From Escherichia coli (GTDB taxonomy: Bacteria > Pseudomonadota > Gammaproteobacteria > Enterobacterales > Enterobacteriaceae), in the NCBI GenBank assembly GCA_902500205.1, contig GCA_902500205.1_4868.1: DNA of 64,000 bases, one strand, 5' to 3'. Shown piece by piece: positions 27,292-43,252 of this stretch. The position numbers and the translations under genes are program-made. The notes under the pieces are model-generated. The model searched no databases. It had not been told where the DNA came from and was given only the letters and a program-made list of their open reading frames with translations. Numbering within the stretch: the first letter of the stretch is position 1; every line of letters begins with the position of its first letter.

Positions 27292-27332
27292 CTCCAGTAA
27301 CCACGAGGGTTACTGGAGTCCTCTTATTTTTT
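27292..27332 (+). terminator. Rho-independent terminator
   Basis: Hairpin ctccagtaacc-acgagg-gttactggag followed by a T-run. Confidence 0.65.
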
Positions 27333-27365
27333 ACACTTAACTCAAATTAATTTGAGGTGTGGTAT

Positions 27366-27953
27366 ATGACAGAACGTATTTTACGACTGCAAGAGAACAG
27401 GTTAGAAGACCTGCACGTAATGCGTAGTCGTGGCTTGTTTCCGGTGGGGCTTGATGTGAGTGGATTATTAACTGCCGCAGAGCACGGGGACAAGGTCATT
27501 ACAATGCATTCACGTGGGAACGAAGTGGTCTCTGCGATTTTCATCGATAAGGTTATTCCGGACTCGGAAAGTGGTAAGGTGGCGGGACACATCATTTACG
27601 AATACTTTCGCAGCATTCTATACGAGGAAAAGATAAATGTCAAAACTTTTATGGAGTACGCTAAGCGAAATAACTACATCGATGCGCGACTGATGGTCAC
27701 GGAAGGCACCCCAACTATAAACGGTAAAGTCCACCATCGTTTACTTGGAGCACAGTTGCCGAGACTAGGCGAGATACCAACGACGATAGAGCTGCACCAA
27801 AAAACAGATTGGCGACACAAAATCGAAGTGCTTCACAAGCTTTACGATTTATCGATCGTTCAAATCAAACTGGTGGACTTTACGCCTGCAAATATGCAAA
27901 TCGCTAAGCGCGCGTTGGGTTTTCGTATTCTTAACACAACCTTCACATTGTAA
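27366..27953 (+). CDS. Hypothetical protein (about 195 aa)
   Basis: ORF track 27357..27953; the first codon lies inside the GAGGTG RBS, so ATG at 27366 (MTERIL) is preferred. Confidence 0.55.
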   Translation: MTERILRLQENRLEDLHVMRSRGLFPVGLDVSGLLTAAEHGDKVITMHSRGNEVVSAIFIDKVIPDSESGKVAGHIIYEYFRSILYEEKINVKTFMEYAKRNNYIDARLMVTEGTPTINGKVHHRLLGAQLPRLGEIPTTIELHQKTDWRHKIEVLHKLYDLSIVQIKLVDFTPANMQIAKRALGFRILNTTFTL

Positions 27954-27958
27954 AATAT

Positions 27959-27979
27959 CTCAGATATATATTACCTAGG
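27959..27979 (+). promoter_or_regulatory. Recurrent motif copy 2 (ctCAGATATATATTACCTAGG)
   Basis: Degenerate match to the recurrent motif; contains the palindrome ATATCTCAGATAT. Confidence 0.3.
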
Positions 27980-28003
27980 TGAGAGTTAAGAGATTAACTC
28001 AAT

Positions 28004-28032
28004 GGCTACCTTCGGGTAGCCTATTCTTTTTT
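28004..28032 (+). terminator. Rho-independent terminator
   Basis: Hairpin ggctacc-ttcg-ggtagcc followed by a T-run. Confidence 0.65.
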
Positions 28033-28057
28033 AAACCAATCGACTATAGAGTAAAAC

Positions 28058-28459
28058 ATGACTATCAAGAAGTTCTTACAAACAGTAGTAGTTCTGGCCG
28101 CATGTGGCATCGCAGCAACTTATGCTTTCGATAAGCCAGACGTGACTGAATACGTATCTGCGGATTCCGATTACGGTATTGCACCGAATGAAAAACCGGA
28201 ACTGATGCGTGAGGTCGAACAGTTACAAATCTACAAACTGACGGATGGTAAGAACTGCACAGGGCTGGTTATCGCTGATAAGAAACTGAAAATGTATCAG
28301 CGATTAACCGACATATCGTGCGATCAACCAAAAGTCACTTCGGTCAGCGTATCGCCGTTGGAATTACCAGATCTGGTTGCTGTGAGTTTTTATCACAACG
28401 ATGTGCTCGTTGGTCGCATCACCCTCATTCGTGGAGATATCAAAAATGAAATGCAATAA
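28058..28459 (+). CDS. Small secreted protein or lipoprotein (133 aa)
   Basis: N-terminal signal peptide with possible lipobox (VLAAC); two further Cys. Confidence 0.55.
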   Translation: MTIKKFLQTVVVLAACGIAATYAFDKPDVTEYVSADSDYGIAPNEKPELMREVEQLQIYKLTDGKNCTGLVIADKKLKMYQRLTDISCDQPKVTSVSVSPLELPDLVAVSFYHNDVLVGRITLIRGDIKNEMQ

Positions 28460-28937
28460 CGTTAATCACCACTTGGCCAAAGTGGTGCTTTTTACTGTGC
28501 TGTTGATGGCACTTGTTGTTGGGCTACGGATTTCTAAGGCGCACGCTGACGAATTCAGCGGGTTCCAGGGCAGTATTAACGGCAGCATTCCAGCATATAC
28601 CCGCACCATCAATCTTAATGATAAGCCGTTCTGGTGCAATGCGCGTAAGCTGCTTAAGAAACAGTGTCGTGTAGTTGACATATCCTTCAACGGACGTGTC
28701 GCTATCGTACACCGTCCGGGCGATAAAGATTGCCCAGGTGGTTGGTGGGGTGCAGTCGACCGTCACAACGGTGACGCGTTATGGCTTATCCCTAATCGTG
28801 ATGAACTATCAGTGGAGAAAATTTGCAGCAAAGATTTCAGGGCCGGTTTTGTACAGCGACCTGATACCAAAACTCTGGCCTCCATCGCTATGTACTACGG
28901 TATGGAAACCATCAAAACAATCGACTATTCAGAATAA
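28446..28937 (+). CDS. Small secreted Cys-containing protein, paralog 1 (about 163 aa)
   Basis: Start moved to MKCNNVN; signal peptide; motif FWCNARKLLKKQC...DCPGGWWG resembles the next two genes. Confidence 0.5.
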   Translation: MKCNNVNHHLAKVVLFTVLLMALVVGLRISKAHADEFSGFQGSINGSIPAYTRTINLNDKPFWCNARKLLKKQCRVVDISFNGRVAIVHRPGDKDCPGGWWGAVDRHNGDALWLIPNRDELSVEKICSKDFRAGFVQRPDTKTLASIAMYYGMETIKTIDYSE

Positions 28938-28959
28938 CTCAAAAAATTGAGGTGCTATT

Positions 28960-29370
28960 ATGAAACATTTTTTATTACCAGTTTTACTTGCTACTCTGGC
29001 CATTAGCTTCTTCGCTCGTGCTGGAAGTATCGAGTTACCAAAAGTTGTTAACGATCACGAATACGGCGGAGAGTTCTGGTGCCAGAACTCTGACGTACAA
29101 GGCGGTAGCTGCCAGATCGTTGCGATGTCCGATAACAACCGTTACCTGTTAGTGAAAACGATGGGCGGTGTCGCATGTGGCGACCCTGAATACGGGGTTA
29201 TTAACATGGCAACCGGGCAAGCCGAATCCATGAACTATAATGATAACCAAGCCTGCAGTGGTGAAGCCGTTGCTGAGTTTACACGCGACCCAGGCGACAA
29301 TGCCCTGACGGTTATCATGTACGACCCTACGATTAAGAAAAACGTAGGCATCAATAAACTCGACTTTTAA
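28960..29370 (+). CDS. Small secreted Cys-containing protein, paralog 2 (136 aa)
   Basis: Signal peptide MKHFLLPVLLATLAISFFARA; motif FWCQNSDVQGGSC...ACGDPEYG. Confidence 0.55.
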   Translation: MKHFLLPVLLATLAISFFARAGSIELPKVVNDHEYGGEFWCQNSDVQGGSCQIVAMSDNNRYLLVKTMGGVACGDPEYGVINMATGQAESMNYNDNQACSGEAVAEFTRDPGDNALTVIMYDPTIKKNVGINKLDF

Positions 29371-29383
29371 GTAAGGAAACAAC

Positions 29384-29767
29384 ATGCGTGGATTTATGGG
29401 TATTATCGCGGCGGTGTTCTTGACCGCTTCCGCTTCAGCTACAACCAGCGTAGAAGATTTACTGCCGGGCACACCGTATCAGTACAACCCGCCTTCATTC
29501 GAAGTCTGTACTGGCGACGATGGCAGATGTGAAGAAGTCAGCCGTCACGACGAGTATATCCTGGTCCACGCAAAGGGCGAGGAAACTTGTCCGGCTGGTT
29601 ACTACTTCTTGTTGAACTCAAAGGCACAAGAGATTGTGCCGGTAGAGACAATAACGTGCGACCCGACGCTTCGCGCGTCGCTCGCTTACAATACGAAAAC
29701 CAAACAGCGCCTCCTGGTTATTGAACAACAAGGCGAAGTGCGTGGTTCAATAGCGCTCGACCAGTAA
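29384..29767 (+). CDS. Small secreted Cys-containing protein, paralog 3 (127 aa)
   Basis: Signal peptide; motif EVCTGDDGRCEEV...TCPAGYYF. Confidence 0.55.
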   Translation: MRGFMGIIAAVFLTASASATTSVEDLLPGTPYQYNPPSFEVCTGDDGRCEEVSRHDEYILVHAKGEETCPAGYYFLLNSKAQEIVPVETITCDPTLRASLAYNTKTKQRLLVIEQQGEVRGSIALDQ

Positions 29768-29779
29768 CCGAAAAGTTTT

Positions 29780-29801
29780 CAGACAGATGTTATAACGTGA
29801 G
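29780..29801 (+). promoter_or_regulatory. Recurrent motif copy 3 (CAGACAGATGTTATAACgtgag), overlapping a downstream hairpin
   Basis: Motif match; immediately followed by an 8-bp-stem hairpin gtgagatg-acgaccc-catctcac. Confidence 0.35.
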
Positions 29802-29896
29802 ATGACGACCCATCTCACTTTGGCCCTGCGGTGATTTCCCCAACACTTAGCCGCAGGGTCCTTTTTAATCGACTATTACCCGTAAGGATTAAGCAA

Positions 29897-30397
29897 ATGA
29901 ACATGAACATTCTCGACGATACCCGTTCTTCTTTCTTTACTCAGATGAACGTTAACCCTGAACGTACCCGTGCTATTCTTTCTACTGGTTGGAAGTTGAA
30001 GTTGTTAGGCGAGTTAACCCTCAATCGCACCGACTGGCCAGCAGAAGCAACCGTACTGATTAACAGCATTCACAGCGAGTGGCTAGATGCTGCGTTGAAT
30101 GCCCCACAACTACGTCCGTACTATCGGATGCTTCACGCGGGATATGAAGTATACCGCAAAGGTTGGTACGATGCAGCCACATATTGCAACATCCCTGGAG
30201 GTCGTGAAGACAACACCGTCGACCACGTATTAGTGAATAACTTCTGGGGCGACCAAATTGAGGTCTTACAACTCTCTACCGGTGACCGTATTCCGGCCTG
30301 TGAGTTATTCGAAACTAACGCACAAATGTACGAACCGTATGCAATGATTCGTGGCCATAAGGTCCCAATCATTTCCCTTATGCATATGGGGCTGTAA
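29897..30397 (+). CDS. Hypothetical protein (about 166 aa)
   Basis: ORF track 29831..30397; start moved to ATG with AAGGA RBS (MNMNILDD). Confidence 0.55.
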   Translation: MNMNILDDTRSSFFTQMNVNPERTRAILSTGWKLKLLGELTLNRTDWPAEATVLINSIHSEWLDAALNAPQLRPYYRMLHAGYEVYRKGWYDAATYCNIPGGREDNTVDHVLVNNFWGDQIEVLQLSTGDRIPACELFETNAQMYEPYAMIRGHKVPIISLMHMGL

Positions 30398-30405
30398 ATA
30401 CGAGA

Positions 30406-30434
30406 GGTAGCCTACGGGCTACCTTCTTTTTTTG
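30406..30434 (+). terminator. Rho-independent terminator
   Basis: Hairpin ggtagcc-tacg-ggctacc followed by a T-run. Confidence 0.65.
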
Positions 30435-30451
30435 TTGAAGAAGGATTAAAC

Positions 30452-31078
30452 ATGAACGAGATTACCCTGATTCGTTTCATCGACGACATGGTGACGTGTC
30501 AGAAAGCGAATCGTCGGGATACCAAACTGCGTATCAATCTGATGGAAGAAGAGGTAGAAGGGTTTCTGGAATACCCGCGATTGGTGAAGTGGTTTAAAGA
30601 AGCACTGCCGCGTAGCTGGGAACAGCTAGAAGCGTGGTTTGCTCTACCTATTGCAGAACGTAACCCTAACAATACGATCTTTACCGGAACCACTGCATTA
30701 GATTTGGCTGGTTCGGTGGAGCAACCTAAACGTTTGGTTTTCTTCTACGTCAATGGCGATTCAATAATGGCTGATACAGTTAACTGGATTTCTGATGAGT
30801 TGACTGTAAACACCACTTTGGTCGGTAGCGCTGCTGATGCCTGGGTTGTTGGTCAGCACCAATCGCAACCGTACGAAGAAATCAAAACCGGTTATTTAAT
30901 CCCGATATATCTCGACGGCGTGGCACCCGGTCGTAGTGCCGAACTGTTCAAATTCCTGCTTACTGAAACGTTAAAGGTTGTCGATTCTGATGCCGGGCGG
31001 GCGTGGTATGAATTAACCAAAGAGCGCACCGATAGTTTTTGGGAATCACTCGGACACCGTAAGTTTATTCCGCAATAA
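30452..31078 (+). CDS. Hypothetical protein (208 aa)
   Basis: ORF track; no metallophosphoesterase (Mre11/SbcD) motifs seen. Confidence 0.55.
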   Translation: MNEITLIRFIDDMVTCQKANRRDTKLRINLMEEEVEGFLEYPRLVKWFKEALPRSWEQLEAWFALPIAERNPNNTIFTGTTALDLAGSVEQPKRLVFFYVNGDSIMADTVNWISDELTVNTTLVGSAADAWVVGQHQSQPYEEIKTGYLIPIYLDGVAPGRSAELFKFLLTETLKVVDSDAGRAWYELTKERTDSFWESLGHRKFIPQ

Positions 31079-37250: not shown

Positions 37251-37333
37251 CACATTACAAAGGAGCACAATGCCGTCCGCGCCGTCTTCCCGGATTGGGA
37301 ACGGAAAAGTATAAATCCGTTTGGAGAACATCC

Positions 37334-38056
37334 ATGTTTCGCACCATTTTATTTCTTCTGGTAGCAGTGACCACATTCAACAGCAACGCTTCTTACCAGT
37401 CCACCAGTAACAAACATCAAAAAGAATTTGTCCTTATCCAGGACCAGTTCAATGAGATTAAACCTCTCATCGTCTCTGCATCTCAAAAGCAAGGTGTACA
37501 TGCCGGGATGCTTGCGACCACCATTTACCGTGAATCCCGTTTTAATAAAAACGTGGGTAAGAATAAATCGAGCAGTGCTAGTAGTGTTGTCCAAATGACG
37601 ACAGGCACTAAACGCTCCATGATACGTCTGTATGGGAAACAACTTAACATCCCAAAGAACGCAGACCTTAATAAACCGAAATATGCTGTACAGCTTGCTG
37701 CTGTTTACATGAAACACATCGAGGATCATCTGACAAAACAACTCAAACGCAAGCCGAGCACAGCCGAAATCGCATTAGGCTACCGCTTCGGTGAGAGCGC
37801 TGCTGTTGCGATGATTAAAAAGAAATCATCGGTCGGGAAACGCTGGATGGACAGCTACCGAAAAGACGCAGCATTCTACGGTGCGAAAATGACGCCACCG
37901 AAAGCTGAAACACGTCAGCTTGCTTTTGCGAAGGAAGACCGCGACCAACACGTCGCTGAGCTTCAGAAAATCTGGGATACGCTGTACAGCAAAGTATCAC
38001 CTGCGGCCGGTACATTACTGGCAAATAACACTATCATGAAAGGAGCATTGCTTTGA
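37334..38056 (+). CDS. SLT-domain lytic transglycosylase with N-terminal signal peptide (about 240 aa)
   Basis: Signal-like N-terminus MFRTILFLLVAVTTFNSNA; catalytic-region motif TTIYRESRFN...SSVVQMTTGT matches the family-1 lytic transglycosylase E-S ... Q pattern; start moved from track 37295. Confidence 0.6.
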   Translation: MFRTILFLLVAVTTFNSNASYQSTSNKHQKEFVLIQDQFNEIKPLIVSASQKQGVHAGMLATTIYRESRFNKNVGKNKSSSASSVVQMTTGTKRSMIRLYGKQLNIPKNADLNKPKYAVQLAAVYMKHIEDHLTKQLKRKPSTAEIALGYRFGESAAVAMIKKKSSVGKRWMDSYRKDAAFYGAKMTPPKAETRQLAFAKEDRDQHVAELQKIWDTLYSKVSPAAGTLLANNTIMKGALL

Positions 38057-42229: not shown

Positions 42230-42253
42230 AATTAAAAACTCTCCGAGGTGAGC

Positions 42254-42763
42254 ATGATAGCATCAGTTTTCAAACTGCTTCCATTCTTACAGATGCTGTG
42301 GGAAGCATTTAAACCGGGCGAGGGGGAGAAAGTAACACGAGCCGGGAAGATAGTGACACTAGTGATAGTGGCACTGGTCGCGTTCTCTGCATTTGTCTCA
42401 TATGCCTATATTGTTCAATACCACACACTGGTTAGCGTCCAATCGCGTACTCAGTATCTGGAGATATCCTATAAGGAGCTAAAAGAGAAGTCCGATCATG
42501 GCGAAGTGGAGAACAATAAGCTGTACGATCGTCTCTTCACATGCCTGGGTTCTCGATCGCCATATGATGGTACCAAATCTCCAACAGGGACAGGCACTGG
42601 GGCCGCGGTTCCGCCTGAAGAACTCAAGCCGGTAACACCACAGGCACCGTTAAATCCGTCTAGCCCGCCTGCCAAGAAACACCAGGCAGCTTCTCGCCCA
42701 GTGGGGTCGCAGGCGGCAAACGATTTCCGACAGGAGATTATCAAGACGCTTAATAATCCATGA
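42254..42763 (+). CDS. Membrane-anchored protein, i-spanin-like (about 169 aa), tentative
   Basis: Single N-terminal transmembrane helix (IVTLVIVALVAFSAFVSYAYIV), then a charged helical segment and a Pro-rich tail; immediately upstream of a lipoprotein gene. Confidence 0.4.
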   Translation: MIASVFKLLPFLQMLWEAFKPGEGEKVTRAGKIVTLVIVALVAFSAFVSYAYIVQYHTLVSVQSRTQYLEISYKELKEKSDHGEVENNKLYDRLFTCLGSRSPYDGTKSPTGTGTGAAVPPEELKPVTPQAPLNPSSPPAKKHQAASRPVGSQAANDFRQEIIKTLNNP

Positions 42764-42772
42764 GGAGCATAC

Positions 42773-43252
42773 ATGAAGTTATTTTTGGTGGCGATACTGG
42801 TGCTATTGTTGACAGGATGCCCTGGGGTCATCCGTCACGTAGACCCAGATTACTCCTCAACCGGAGATTGGCCTTTTCGTCCTTTAGAACACCCACCAGT
42901 ATATAACGGTGGGAACAGTCCTGAGGCGAAAAAGCTGGCAGGGAAAATGTTTGTTGCGGATGTGAACGCTTATGCTTATTACGTTTATCTGTACGCTAAG
43001 TCAGTAAACAACTATGCAGAAGCTAAAGGGTGGCACACCCCGATGACCGCACCGCTTTGTGAAGAGTTTATTCGCCCCACTCTTCATGGTATACCCTCCG
43101 GGATATATCTCGACCCTGGTTCTCGTAGCCCTCAAGACATTAGTCGTGATTTGTCACGACAGATTAAGTCTCTCATTCGCAGCTATCGCGAAGACAGAGA
43201 GTCTTTTAATCGTGCCTACGAACGGCACAAAAGTAGTTGCCTTGTGCAATGA
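42773..43252 (+). CDS. Lipoprotein (159 aa), possible o-spanin-like partner
   Basis: Signal peptide with lipobox LLTGC; Pro-containing mature part with several Cys; larger than typical o-spanins. Confidence 0.5.
   Translation: MKLFLVAILVLLLTGCPGVIRHVDPDYSSTGDWPFRPLEHPPVYNGGNSPEAKKLAGKMFVADVNAYAYYVYLYAKSVNNYAEAKGWHTPMTAPLCEEFIRPTLHGIPSGIYLDPGSRSPQDISRDLSRQIKSLIRSYREDRESFNRAYERHKSSCLVQ

What the first reader, a model, noticed from the sequence alone, without database searches (positions are those of the whole stretch)
28058..29767. Tandem array of four small secreted or lipoproteins, three of them paralogous
Four consecutive genes of 127 to about 163 aa each begin with a signal peptide (one with a lipobox). 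The last three share a Cys pattern (F-W-C ... C, then a hydrophobic beta-like stretch, then C-P/G). Tandem, diversifying periplasmic proteins in a phage early region are candidates for superinfection exclusion, receptor masking or anti-defence functions.
Basis: partly seen in the sequence, partly recalled or inferred. Interest (0 to 1): 0.55.

Follow-up and report, generated by a model that had tools for sequence, protein, structure and literature searches.

The report
Secreted-protein cassette shared with host islands
Four neighbouring genes of an SPN3US-type giant Salmonella/E. coli phage encode small exported, disulfide-bonded proteins of one old family that the phage shares and swaps with CP4-57-type genomic islands of its hosts (relatives of the E. 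coli lipoproteins YfjS/YafY); what they do is untested.

Summary
The window is an SPN3US-like jumbo phage (Seoulvirus), and the genes are SPN3US gp180 to gp183, all annotated hypothetical. All four carry Sec-type signal peptides. gp181, gp182 and gp183 are true paralogues with four invariant cysteines.

- gp180 is probably a fourth, very divergent paralogue. It has the same predicted fold and keeps the second cysteine pair.
- Its lipobox is canonical only in the SPN3US clade.
- The genes are not fast-diversifying. Each orthologue is better conserved across four phage genera than its neighbours.

The main new result is that the family is not phage-specific. Members sit in CP4-57/CP4-6-type chromosomal islands of Enterobacterales and in Aeromonas chromosomes. 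A Salmonella island carries YfjS/YafY lipoprotein, then a gp181-like gene (64% identity), then a gp182-like gene (71%). Order, start/stop overlap and the 22-nt spacer match the phage. Profile comparison links the four-cysteine family to Pfam PF20494 (YfjS_YafY).

The predicted fold is two propeller-like β-blades with no close solved analogue. Function is unknown. An envelope-acting role such as superinfection exclusion or envelope signalling is the best guess and is unproven. Interest is moderate.

The parts
28004..28031 (+). Terminator-like hairpin (GGCTACC-TTCG-GGTAGCC) plus T-run, between gp179 and gp180. It marks the upstream end of the four-gene unit.
   Evidence: Consensus scan; sequence read.
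28058..28459 (+). gp180 (133 aa). Exported protein with a lipobox LAAC(16)G and an alternative SPase I site TYA|F. The mature part has 2 Cys (C67, C88). Probably a divergent fourth paralogue, and the positional counterpart of the YfjS/YafY lipoprotein in bacterial islands.
   Evidence: AF2 model pLDDT 68 with 4+3 β-strands. Foldseek hits to the gp182/183-like family with prob 1.0. hhalign E 0.0026 against a reversed control of 0.021.
28446..28937 (+). gp181 (163 aa). Signal peptide with an unusually long n-region, cleavage at AHA|DEF, and 4 Cys (64, 74, 96, 127). It overlaps gp180 by 14 nt. It is 64% identical to a Salmonella island protein.
28960..29370 (+). gp182 (136 aa). Signal peptide cleaved at ARA|GS, and 4 Cys (41, 51, 73, 99). 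A confident all-β model shows two four-stranded propeller-like blades. It is 71% identical to a Salmonella island protein.
29384..29767 (+). gp183 (127 aa). Signal peptide cleaved at ASA|TT, and 4 Cys (42, 49, 69, 92). This subfamily was seen only in jumbo phages and jumbo-phage-sized contigs.
29797..29866 (+). Two stable hairpins, the second followed by a U-run. They mark the downstream end of the unit.
   Evidence: RNA fold -34.5 kcal/mol, z = -5.0, 0 of 200 shuffles fold as well; sequence read.

Best explanation
Shown:
- gp180 to gp183 form one compact transcription unit.
- The unit encodes four Sec-exported small proteins. gp181, gp182 and gp183, and probably gp180, share one all-β fold of two propeller-like blades.
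- The family is a remote branch of the YfjS/YafY lipoprotein family of E. coli.
- The cassette (first gene, gp181-like, gp182-like) occurs in the same order and spacing in CP4-57/CP4-6-type genomic islands of Salmonella and E. coli. It has been exchanged between phage and islands.

Inferred from the cysteine pattern:
- The fold is stabilised by two disulfides, C1-C2 and C3-C4. gp180 would keep only C3-C4.

Inferred, about function:
- The proteins act in the periplasm or at a membrane of the infected cell, not in the virion or the cytoplasm.
- They bind an envelope component and thereby change the cell surface or envelope signalling during the long jumbo-phage infection.
- The most likely outcome is exclusion of further phage entry or loss of the receptor. 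SPN3US adsorbs to flagella. The one tested relative, YafY, switches on the Cpx envelope stress response when overproduced.
For: Export and disulfides:
- Signal peptides occur in 56 of 57 distinct family proteins, although the signal-peptide sequences themselves diverge.
- There are exactly 4 mature Cys in every complete 4-Cys member and exactly 2 in all seven gp180 orthologues examined.
- The joint absence of C1 and C2 in gp180 and YfjS fits C1-C2 / C3-C4 pairing.

Fold:
- gp182 model pLDDT 83.9, pTM 0.75, with 4+3(+1) strands.
- gp180 model has the same strand order.
- Foldseek hits between the two groups are reciprocal.

Family:
- Mature YfjS/YafY against the mature 4-Cys family by hhalign: Prob 85%, E 6e-6, against 0.17 for the reversed control. 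The YfjS Cys pair aligns to C3/C4.
- With signal peptides included: Prob 95.5%, E 1.6e-8.

Cassette in islands:
- Salmonella L054 carries PF20494 lipoprotein, then gp181-like (64%, 4-nt overlap), then gp182-like (71%, 22-nt gap).
- E. coli ATCC 8739 carries YfjS/YafY followed by a gp181-like gene. That variant is in 49 of 5426 complete E. coli genomes.
- Of 38 gp181-like loci analysed, 33 keep the YfjR-like regulator and RadC next to the gene and about 30 the GTPase, DUF932, antirestriction, YeeU and CbtA genes. 23 of the 38 are followed by a gp182-like gene.

Exchange: the window's gp181 is closer to the Salmonella copy (64%) than to other phage orthologues (41-43%).

Retention: the array is syntenic in Seoulvirus, Erskinevirus, Machinavirus and Wellingtonvirus. 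It is better conserved than its neighbours.

Literature:
- YafY is an inner-membrane lipoprotein and one of two Cpx activators among 90 lipoproteins tested (PMC6538781).
- SPN3US uses flagella as receptor (PMC11428620).
Against: - No experiment bears on these phage genes, and I found no paper that mentions them.
- No PADLOC, Pfam or NCBIfam model matches them.
- gp180 shows no significant sequence link to YfjS/YafY: BLASTP finds nothing, and hhalign gives E 0.12 against a control of 0.03.
- The same island slot also holds surface or secreted proteins of other kinds, such as an IrmA-family protein. The shared theme may therefore be 'surface cargo' rather than phage exclusion.
- The Cpx link rests on overproduction of one distant relative.
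- Signal-peptide calls rest on a home-made rule set, not SignalP or LipoP.
Confidence: 0.4

Rival explanations
1. Periplasmic immunity or inhibitor proteins. The proteins would bind and neutralise cell-wall-degrading enzymes that reach the periplasm, such as lysozymes, T6SS or colicin-type effectors, or the tail lysins of other phages. This would protect the infected or island-bearing cell. A membrane-anchored version paired with soluble versions recalls MliC/PliC.
For: - The proteins are small, disulfide-bonded, periplasmic β-proteins.
- A lipoprotein sits next to soluble paralogues.
- They are carried on mobile islands next to defence cargo (Gabija-like, Mrr-like, RnlAB/AbpAB in K-12).
- The protein downstream of the E. 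coli homologue P0013 has a weak, sub-threshold Ivy match (E 0.007).
Against: - There are no Pfam hits to Ivy, PliC/MliC or any immunity family.
- No cognate toxin or effector gene lies beside the cassette in phage or islands.
Confidence: 0.15
2. The paralogues are subunits of one hetero-oligomeric periplasmic complex. Each supplies two β-blades, and three or four chains close into a 6- or 8-bladed pseudo-propeller, with the first gene product as the membrane anchor. The complex would act as a binding platform for a sugar or a protein.
For: - The model is two four-stranded blades, and the best structural matches are blades of WD40, TolB, Kelch and designed propellers.
- Distinct orthologous paralogues are co-retained in a fixed order in all related phages: three in Machinavirus, four in Seoulvirus.
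- Each is under purifying rather than diversifying pressure.
- From my own knowledge: two-blade proteins that trimerise into propellers are known, for example the RSL and BambL lectins.
Against: - Single copies exist in some islands, such as E. coli P0013.
- No multimer prediction or interaction data could be obtained.
- gp181 has been swapped for a xenologue, which would be awkward for an obligate complex.
Confidence: 0.12
3. Lysis accessory proteins: a spanin pair, or antiholin-like or lysis-timing regulators acting in the periplasm.
For: - A lipoprotein gene overlaps a gene whose product has a long hydrophobic N-terminus (gp180/gp181).
- The proteins are exported and contain Cys.
Against: - The gene order is the reverse of i-spanin then o-spanin.
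- Both models are all-β with no coiled coil.
- The lipobox is not conserved.
- A better spanin-like pair (TM protein at 42248-42763 plus lipoprotein at 42773-43252) and a secreted SLT enzyme (37295-38056) lie elsewhere in the window.
- The same cassette sits in islands where no lysis genes were annotated or detected in the regions examined.
Confidence: 0.05
4. Passenger genes with no role in the phage life cycle. They would have been picked up from host islands and kept by chance.
For: - There are clear signs of horizontal exchange with host islands.
- The genes were not among the 13 essential SPN3US genes found with amber mutants (PMC5105663).
Against: - The array is present and syntenic in all 64 related jumbo-phage records across at least four genera.
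- Cys and signal peptides are intact.
- Conservation is higher than for neighbouring genes.
Confidence: 0.08

Closest known systems
YfjS/YafY lipoproteins of E. coli cryptic prophages CP4-57 and CP4-6 (Pfam PF20494, YfjS_YafY)
   Same: - Exported proteins of about 130-150 aa.
- Collinear profile alignment to the 4-Cys family, including the 'C-[PE]-x-G-x-Y-[YG]' motif and the second Cys pair (Prob 85%, E 6e-6).
- First gene of the same cassette, directly followed by gp181-like and gp182-like genes in Salmonella and E. coli islands.
- Two Cys and a lipobox, as in gp180.
   Different: - None of the four phage proteins hits PF20494, even at E<=1.
- gp181, gp182 and gp183 are not lipoproteins and carry an extra N-terminal Cys pair.
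- gp180 has no significant sequence similarity to YfjS.
- gp180 has Gly rather than Asp after its lipobox Cys (YfjS/YafY have Asp).
- YfjS/YafY function is itself unknown apart from Cpx/DegP induction on overproduction (PMC6538781).
Phage superinfection-exclusion proteins that act in the envelope: T5 Llp and phi80/N15 Cor (outer-membrane lipoproteins that block FhuA), T4 Sp (periplasmic inhibitor of the tail lysozyme), T4 Imm. Recalled from my own knowledge.
   Same: Small phage-encoded proteins exported by Sec, some of them lipoproteins, made by a lytic phage and acting in the periplasm or at the membranes.
   Different: - There is no sequence or fold similarity: no Pfam hit, and the PHROGs are all 'unknown function'.
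- Here there is a conserved array of four paralogues rather than a single gene.
- No exclusion phenotype has been tested.
Two-blade β-propeller fragments and lectins (RSL/BambL type) and designed 'Pizza' propellers
   Same: The predicted domain is two four-stranded antiparallel blades. A Pizza3 chain (3ww8), TolB, WD40 and PfCyRPA blades are the best structural matches.
   Different: - No sugar-binding motif was identified.
- The oligomeric state is unknown.
IrmA (interleukin-receptor mimic protein A) family of E. coli
   Same: A secreted protein of about 150 aa in the same island slot. In E. coli ATCC 8739 its signal peptide is almost the same as that of the gp181-like protein.
   Different: - There is no similarity beyond the signal peptide (HMM E 0.08).
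- No NCBIfam IrmA hit for the phage proteins or the bacterial homologues.

Membership tests
Four-cysteine secreted family (PHROGs 17072, 8968 and 5248; no Pfam model) | Significant sequence or profile similarity among members | tested here: met
   - BLASTP E 4e-8 (gp181 vs gp182) and 8e-6 (gp181 vs gp183).
- PHROG profiles cross-hit.
- A family profile finds 43 representatives at E<=1e-3.
- A family HMM built from the 35-sequence alignment recovers every gp181-, gp182- and gp183-like gene in seven phages at E<=7e-24.
Four-cysteine secreted family (PHROGs 17072, 8968 and 5248; no Pfam model) | N-terminal Sec signal peptide and four conserved Cys in the mature part | tested here: met
   - Met for gp181, gp182 and gp183.
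- gp180 has the signal peptide but only the second Cys pair.
Four-cysteine secreted family (PHROGs 17072, 8968 and 5248; no Pfam model) | gp180 shares the fold and ancestry | tested here: inconclusive
   - Foldseek is reciprocal, with prob 0.96-1.0, E 3e-3 to 6e-2 and TM about 0.5.
- The models have the same 4+3 strand order.
- hhalign gives only E 0.0026 against a reversed control of 0.021.
- The gp180 model has modest confidence (pLDDT 68).
YfjS_YafY lipoprotein family (Pfam PF20494) | Match to the PF20494 profile above its gathering score | tested here: not met
   - No Pfam hit for any of the four proteins at E<=1.
- K-12 YfjS itself scores 228 bits.
YfjS_YafY lipoprotein family (Pfam PF20494) | Remote homology by profile-profile comparison | tested here: met
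   - 4-Cys family against YfjS/YafY, mature parts only: Prob 85%, E 6e-6, 71 columns, against a reversed control of E 0.17.
- gp180 against YfjS is not significant (E 0.12).
YfjS_YafY lipoprotein family (Pfam PF20494) | Lipobox with the acylated Cys conserved in the family | tested here: not met
   - gp181, gp182 and gp183 have SPase I-type sites.
- gp180 has LAAC only in the SPN3US clade.
- Orthologues have LATC, IAVC, AVVC or no Cys.
YfjS_YafY lipoprotein family (Pfam PF20494) | Genomic place: first gene of the cassette, directly upstream of a gp181-like gene | tested here: met
   - gp180 occupies the position held by the PF20494 gene in Salmonella L054 and E. coli L053.
- The start/stop overlap is present in both phage and islands.
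Envelope superinfection-exclusion proteins (Llp, Cor, Sp, Imm) | Homology to a characterised exclusion protein | tested here: not met
   - No Pfam, NCBIfam or PADLOC hit.
- The PHROG categories are all 'unknown function'.
Envelope superinfection-exclusion proteins (Llp, Cor, Sp, Imm) | Expression blocks infection by the same or other phages | not testable with these tools
   This needs plating and adsorption assays with the cloned genes.
Spanins (Rz/Rz1 type) | An i-spanin with an N-terminal TM and a coiled-coil periplasmic domain, followed by or embedding a small o-spanin lipoprotein, within a lysis cassette | tested here: not met
   - The lipobox gene comes first.
- Both models are all-β.
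- The lipobox is not conserved.
- A better candidate pair lies at 42248-43252.
Periplasmic lysozyme inhibitors (Ivy, PliC/MliC, PliG, PliI) | Sequence or fold match to one of these families | tested here: not met
   - No Pfam hit.
β-propeller-fragment oligomers (RSL/BambL-like) | Two-blade unit that oligomerises into a closed propeller | tested here: inconclusive
   - Oligomerisation could not be modelled here.

The most novel reading that the evidence does not exclude
The cassette is a mobile periplasmic device that lytic jumbo phages and CP4-57-type islands trade with each other. Its two-blade paralogues assemble, around the anchored first subunit, into a hetero-oligomeric pseudo-propeller. 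This complex binds an envelope component or triggers Cpx signalling, so that the cell loses or masks phage receptors such as flagella. That would be a new class of envelope-level superinfection exclusion shared by a virus and its host's defence islands.
Probability: 0.1. Interest if true: 0.7.

Novelty: new variant of a known kind. Interest (0 to 1): 0.42.

Why it matters
It gives four 'hypothetical' genes, conserved in all SPN3US-like jumbo phages, a cellular address (the periplasm or membranes), a fold and a family. It connects them to the y-ome proteins YfjS/YafY of E. coli K-12 cryptic prophages. The only known phenotype of that family is activation of the Cpx envelope stress response on overproduction of YafY.

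It also documents recent gene flow between a strictly lytic, nucleus-forming-type giant phage lineage and host genomic islands that carry defence and antirestriction cargo. If the cassette proves to block phage entry or reprogramme the envelope, one experiment set would explain both the phage genes and a widespread island module in Enterobacterales. That module includes more than 1000 sequences in one Klebsiella/Enterobacter/Citrobacter cluster. The genes also matter for phage-cocktail design with SPN3US-type phages.

Tried and rejected
- Pfam, NCBIfam and PADLOC scans of the four proteins and of bacterial homologues found nothing. The UniRef label 'DUF3019' on Aeromonas members was not reproduced with current Pfam.
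- Foldseek against BFVD gave only family members, then weak Kelch hits. The afdb50 library was unavailable.
- Large repetitive surface proteins in the exhaustive search (P0066 to P0069, P0079) are Bacteroidetes-type multi-repeat proteins. I treated them as spurious.
- The search for related loci with the broad alignment failed because it had no conserved stretch. A narrower alignment worked.
- Direct BLASTP of gp180 against gp183 and against island YfjS found nothing.
- K-12 YfjT and YpjK are not family members. IrmA shares only the signal peptide.
- The spanin reading was rejected (see the rival explanations).
- Literature searches for SPN3US gp180-183 returned only other phages' gene numbers. 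The SPN3US essential-gene and virion paper does not mention them.
- The 10-mer AATCGACTAT, exact three times around the array, looked like a promoter element. Only the copy upstream of gp184 is kept in relatives, so I left it as a side note.
Full report
**What the window is.** Bases 27300-30500 are 96-98% identical to Escherichia phage vB_EcoM_EC001, Salmonella phage SPN3US and some 40 other records of 233-243 kb jumbo phages. In SPN3US (JN641803) the four genes are SPN3US_0180 to 0183, all 'hypothetical protein'. They lie between gp179 and gp184/gp185, upstream of the essential SbcC-like gp186 (PMC5105663).

**The observation.**
- The ORFs are 28058-28459 (133 aa), 28446-28937 (163 aa), 28960-29370 (136 aa) and 29384-29767 (127 aa).
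- The spacing is a 14-nt overlap, then 22-nt and 13-nt gaps.
- A hairpin plus T-run precedes the unit (28004-28021).
- Two strong hairpins plus a U-run follow it (29797-29866; -34.5 kcal/mol, z = -5.0). This looks like one transcription unit.
- Each product has a basic n-region, a 14-16-residue hydrophobic core and an AxA-type site.
- A crude rule-based detector was applied to all 97 window ORFs of at least 100 aa. It is permissive, flagging 25 of 97, but the four genes rank 1, 2, 3 and 5 by score. I had no SignalP or LipoP.
- The stronger argument is comparative. 56 of 57 distinct relatives keep these features although the signal-peptide sequences themselves drift, and the one exception is a truncated entry.

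**Paralogy.**
- gp181 vs gp182 gives BLASTP E 4e-8, gp181 vs gp183 gives 8e-6, and gp182 vs gp183 gives 0.09. PHROG profiles cross-hit.
- Four Cys columns are essentially invariant across a 35-sequence alignment of 16-76% identity: three invariant, the fourth in at least 90%. Every complete member has exactly four Cys in its mature part.
- gp180 has no BLAST similarity to the others, and profile comparison is marginal (E 0.39 with few sequences; E 0.0026 with nine, against 0.021 for a reversed control).
- Even so, every alignment puts its two Cys on C3 and C4 of the family.
- Its AlphaFold model (pLDDT 68) has the same 4+3 strand order as gp182 (pLDDT 83.9).
- In BFVD the two models find each other's orthologues as nearest neighbours, above all unrelated proteins (prob 0.96-1.0, TM about 0.5).
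- I conclude that gp180 is probably a fourth, very old paralogue that lost the first disulfide.

**The lipobox.** L-A-A-C-G in gp180 is canonical. The Cys is absent in pEa_SNUABM_29, Wellington and P0035. It is preceded by Thr or Val in the other orthologues, while an AxA-type site after the hydrophobic core is kept in every orthologue (the exact TYA|F motif only within the Seoulvirus-like clade). Lipidation is therefore at most a trait of the SPN3US clade.

**Not diversifying.**
- The array is syntenic in Seoulvirus, Erskinevirus (Asesino), Machinavirus (Huxley, Caitlin, pEa_SNUABM_4) and Wellingtonvirus.
- The order is always gp180-like, [gp181-like], gp182-like, gp183-like. Wellington has one extra divergent copy.
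- Exactly the same 64 phage records hold gp182 and gp183.
- Between the window and Asesino, gp180, gp182 and gp183 are 53-59% identical. gp179 is 25%, gp184 is 39%, gp185 is 45% and gp186 is 62%.
- Only gp181 is out of line, at 41-43%.

**The family outside phages.**
- An exhaustive profile search found 43 representatives.
- Cluster look-ups show many are chromosomal: E. coli (three clusters), a 1037-member cluster in Klebsiella/Enterobacter/Citrobacter, Aeromonas, Edwardsiella (several copies per genome) and Shewanella.
- The gp183-like branch has only phage or jumbo-sized contigs.
- 38 gp181-like loci were analysed. The same neighbours recur in most of them, 33 of 38 for the YfjR-like regulator and RadC and 27-30 for the rest: GTPase (YfjP-like), DUF932, often a GYF-domain membrane protein, then the gene. 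After it come DUF905, antirestriction, RadC, DUF987, YeeU and CbtA. A gp182-like gene follows in 23 of the 38. The three Aeromonas loci keep little of this context.
- That is the architecture of E. coli K-12 CP4-57, where the slot holds ypjK-yfjS-yfjT.
- The gp182-like homologue P0013 sits in such an island beside a Gabija-like pair. It is in 78 of 5426 complete E. coli genomes.

**The cassette match.**
- In a Salmonella Infantis island (L054) a PF20494 YfjS_YafY lipoprotein gene is followed, with a 4-nt overlap, by a protein 64% identical to gp181. After a 22-nt gap comes one 71% identical to gp182.
- E. coli ATCC 8739 has YfjS/YafY followed by a gp181-like gene. That variant is in 49 of 5426 genomes.
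- The phage has the same order, an overlap and the same 22-nt gap.
- In a distance tree, phage and bacterial sequences interleave in the gp181 and gp182 branches. The window's gp181 is nearer to the Salmonella copy than to other phage orthologues. Exchange has therefore been repeated and recent; I could not orient it.

**Link to YfjS/YafY.** With signal peptides removed, a three-sequence YfjS/YafY alignment matches the 4-Cys family with Prob 85% and E 6e-6 over 71 columns, against a reversed control of 0.17. Its Cys pair aligns on C3/C4 and its 'C-E-G-G-S-Y-Y-Y' on 'C-P-x-G-x-Y-G/Y'. The phage proteins do not reach the Pfam model. They are remote relatives rather than members.

**Function.** Nothing is tested for the phage genes.
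- YafY is an inner-membrane lipoprotein of unknown function and one of two Cpx activators among 90 overproduced lipoproteins (PMC6538781).
- A FliA promoter lies inside yafY (PMC4183435).
- SPN3US uses flagella as receptor (PMC11428620).
- The islands carry defence and antirestriction genes.

I therefore favour an envelope-acting role, either entry exclusion or receptor/envelope reprogramming. My confidence is about 0.3 for the function and about 0.85 for export and family placement. The rivals are immunity or inhibitor proteins, a hetero-oligomeric propeller, lysis accessories and neutral passengers. The lysis reading is unlikely because better spanin and muralytic candidates lie at 42248-43252 and 37295-38056.

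**Verdict.** This is a real, well-delimited feature. The added value is the family and island connection. Interest is moderate.

Noticed in passing
window 37295-38056 (+): A 253-aa protein with a signal-peptide-like N-terminus (MFRT-ILFLLVAVTTF-NSNA|S from the internal start) and an SLT lytic transglycosylase domain (Pfam E 1.5e-6). It is a candidate exported endolysin or muralytic enzyme.
   Followed up: partly
window 42248-42763 (+) and 42773-43252 (+): A 171-aa protein with one N-terminal TM segment and a Pro-rich tail is followed 10 nt later by a 159-aa protein with the canonical lipobox LLTGC. This is a spanin-like pair and a better spanin candidate than gp180/gp181.
   Followed up: partly
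window 28038-28047, 28919-28928, 29867-29876 (+): The exact 10-mer AATCGACTAT occurs three times in the 64-kb window, all on the + strand and all within this 1.9-kb stretch, 20-41 nt upstream of the gp180, gp182 and gp184 starts. I estimate about 0.1 exact copies by chance. The copy about 30 nt upstream of gp184 is kept in SPN3US and pEa_SNUABM_29. It may be a phage promoter element.
   Followed up: partly
L053:6337-6789 (E. coli ATCC 8739 island): An IrmA-family secreted protein occupies the same island slot. Its signal peptide (…SVISAATLSLCLLTPAHA) is almost the same as that of the gp181-like proteins (…GVISAAVLSLYLLTPAHA). This suggests cargo swapping by recombination within the signal-peptide region.
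   Followed up: partly
P0003 cluster (gp183 orthologues), contigs of 240-244 kb: Hundreds of SPN3US-like contigs of full genome length are deposited under Salmonella enterica or E. coli isolate assemblies. The giant phage is often co-sequenced with isolates, through a carrier state or contamination.
   Followed up: no
E. coli K-12 yafY (CP4-6), literature: The published intragenic FliA (sigma-28) promoter inside yafY (GATGAATGCGCTGTGTATTGCCGATAAC) overlaps the codons for MNALCIADN. That is the conserved second Cys motif of YfjS/YafY. The promoter drives the downstream ykfB.
   Followed up: no
L004:8476-9414 (E. coli island, downstream of P0013): A 312-aa protein has a weak, sub-threshold match to Ivy, the inhibitor of vertebrate lysozyme (E 0.007, 16.9 bits against a cut-off of 21).
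   Followed up: no
window 28446-28937 versus L012:3068-3565 and L007:3067-3552: gp181 of the SPN3US clade is only 41-43% identical to gp181 of the congeneric pEa_SNUABM_29 and of Asesino, but 64% identical to a Salmonella island protein. This is an in-place xenologous replacement. Machinavirus phages lack gp181 altogether.
   Followed up: yes
L009:4388-4795 (Erwinia phage Wellington): There is an extra, very divergent four-Cys paralogue (family HMM E 7.5e-7) after the gp183-like gene, so copy number varies between genera (3 to 4 or more).
   Followed up: partly
P0045 (116 aa, E. coli): This is a gp182-like island gene whose 5' half has been replaced by sequence with a helix-turn-helix-like, possibly insertion-sequence-derived, N-terminus. 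It appears to be a disrupted copy.
   Followed up: no
Salmonella phage SPFM records (LR5359xx) at the homologous region: Several SPFM genomes match the region only as about 40 short pieces, and their annotated proteins are frameshifted fragments of gp180-183. This is most likely due to assembly errors rather than biology.
   Followed up: no
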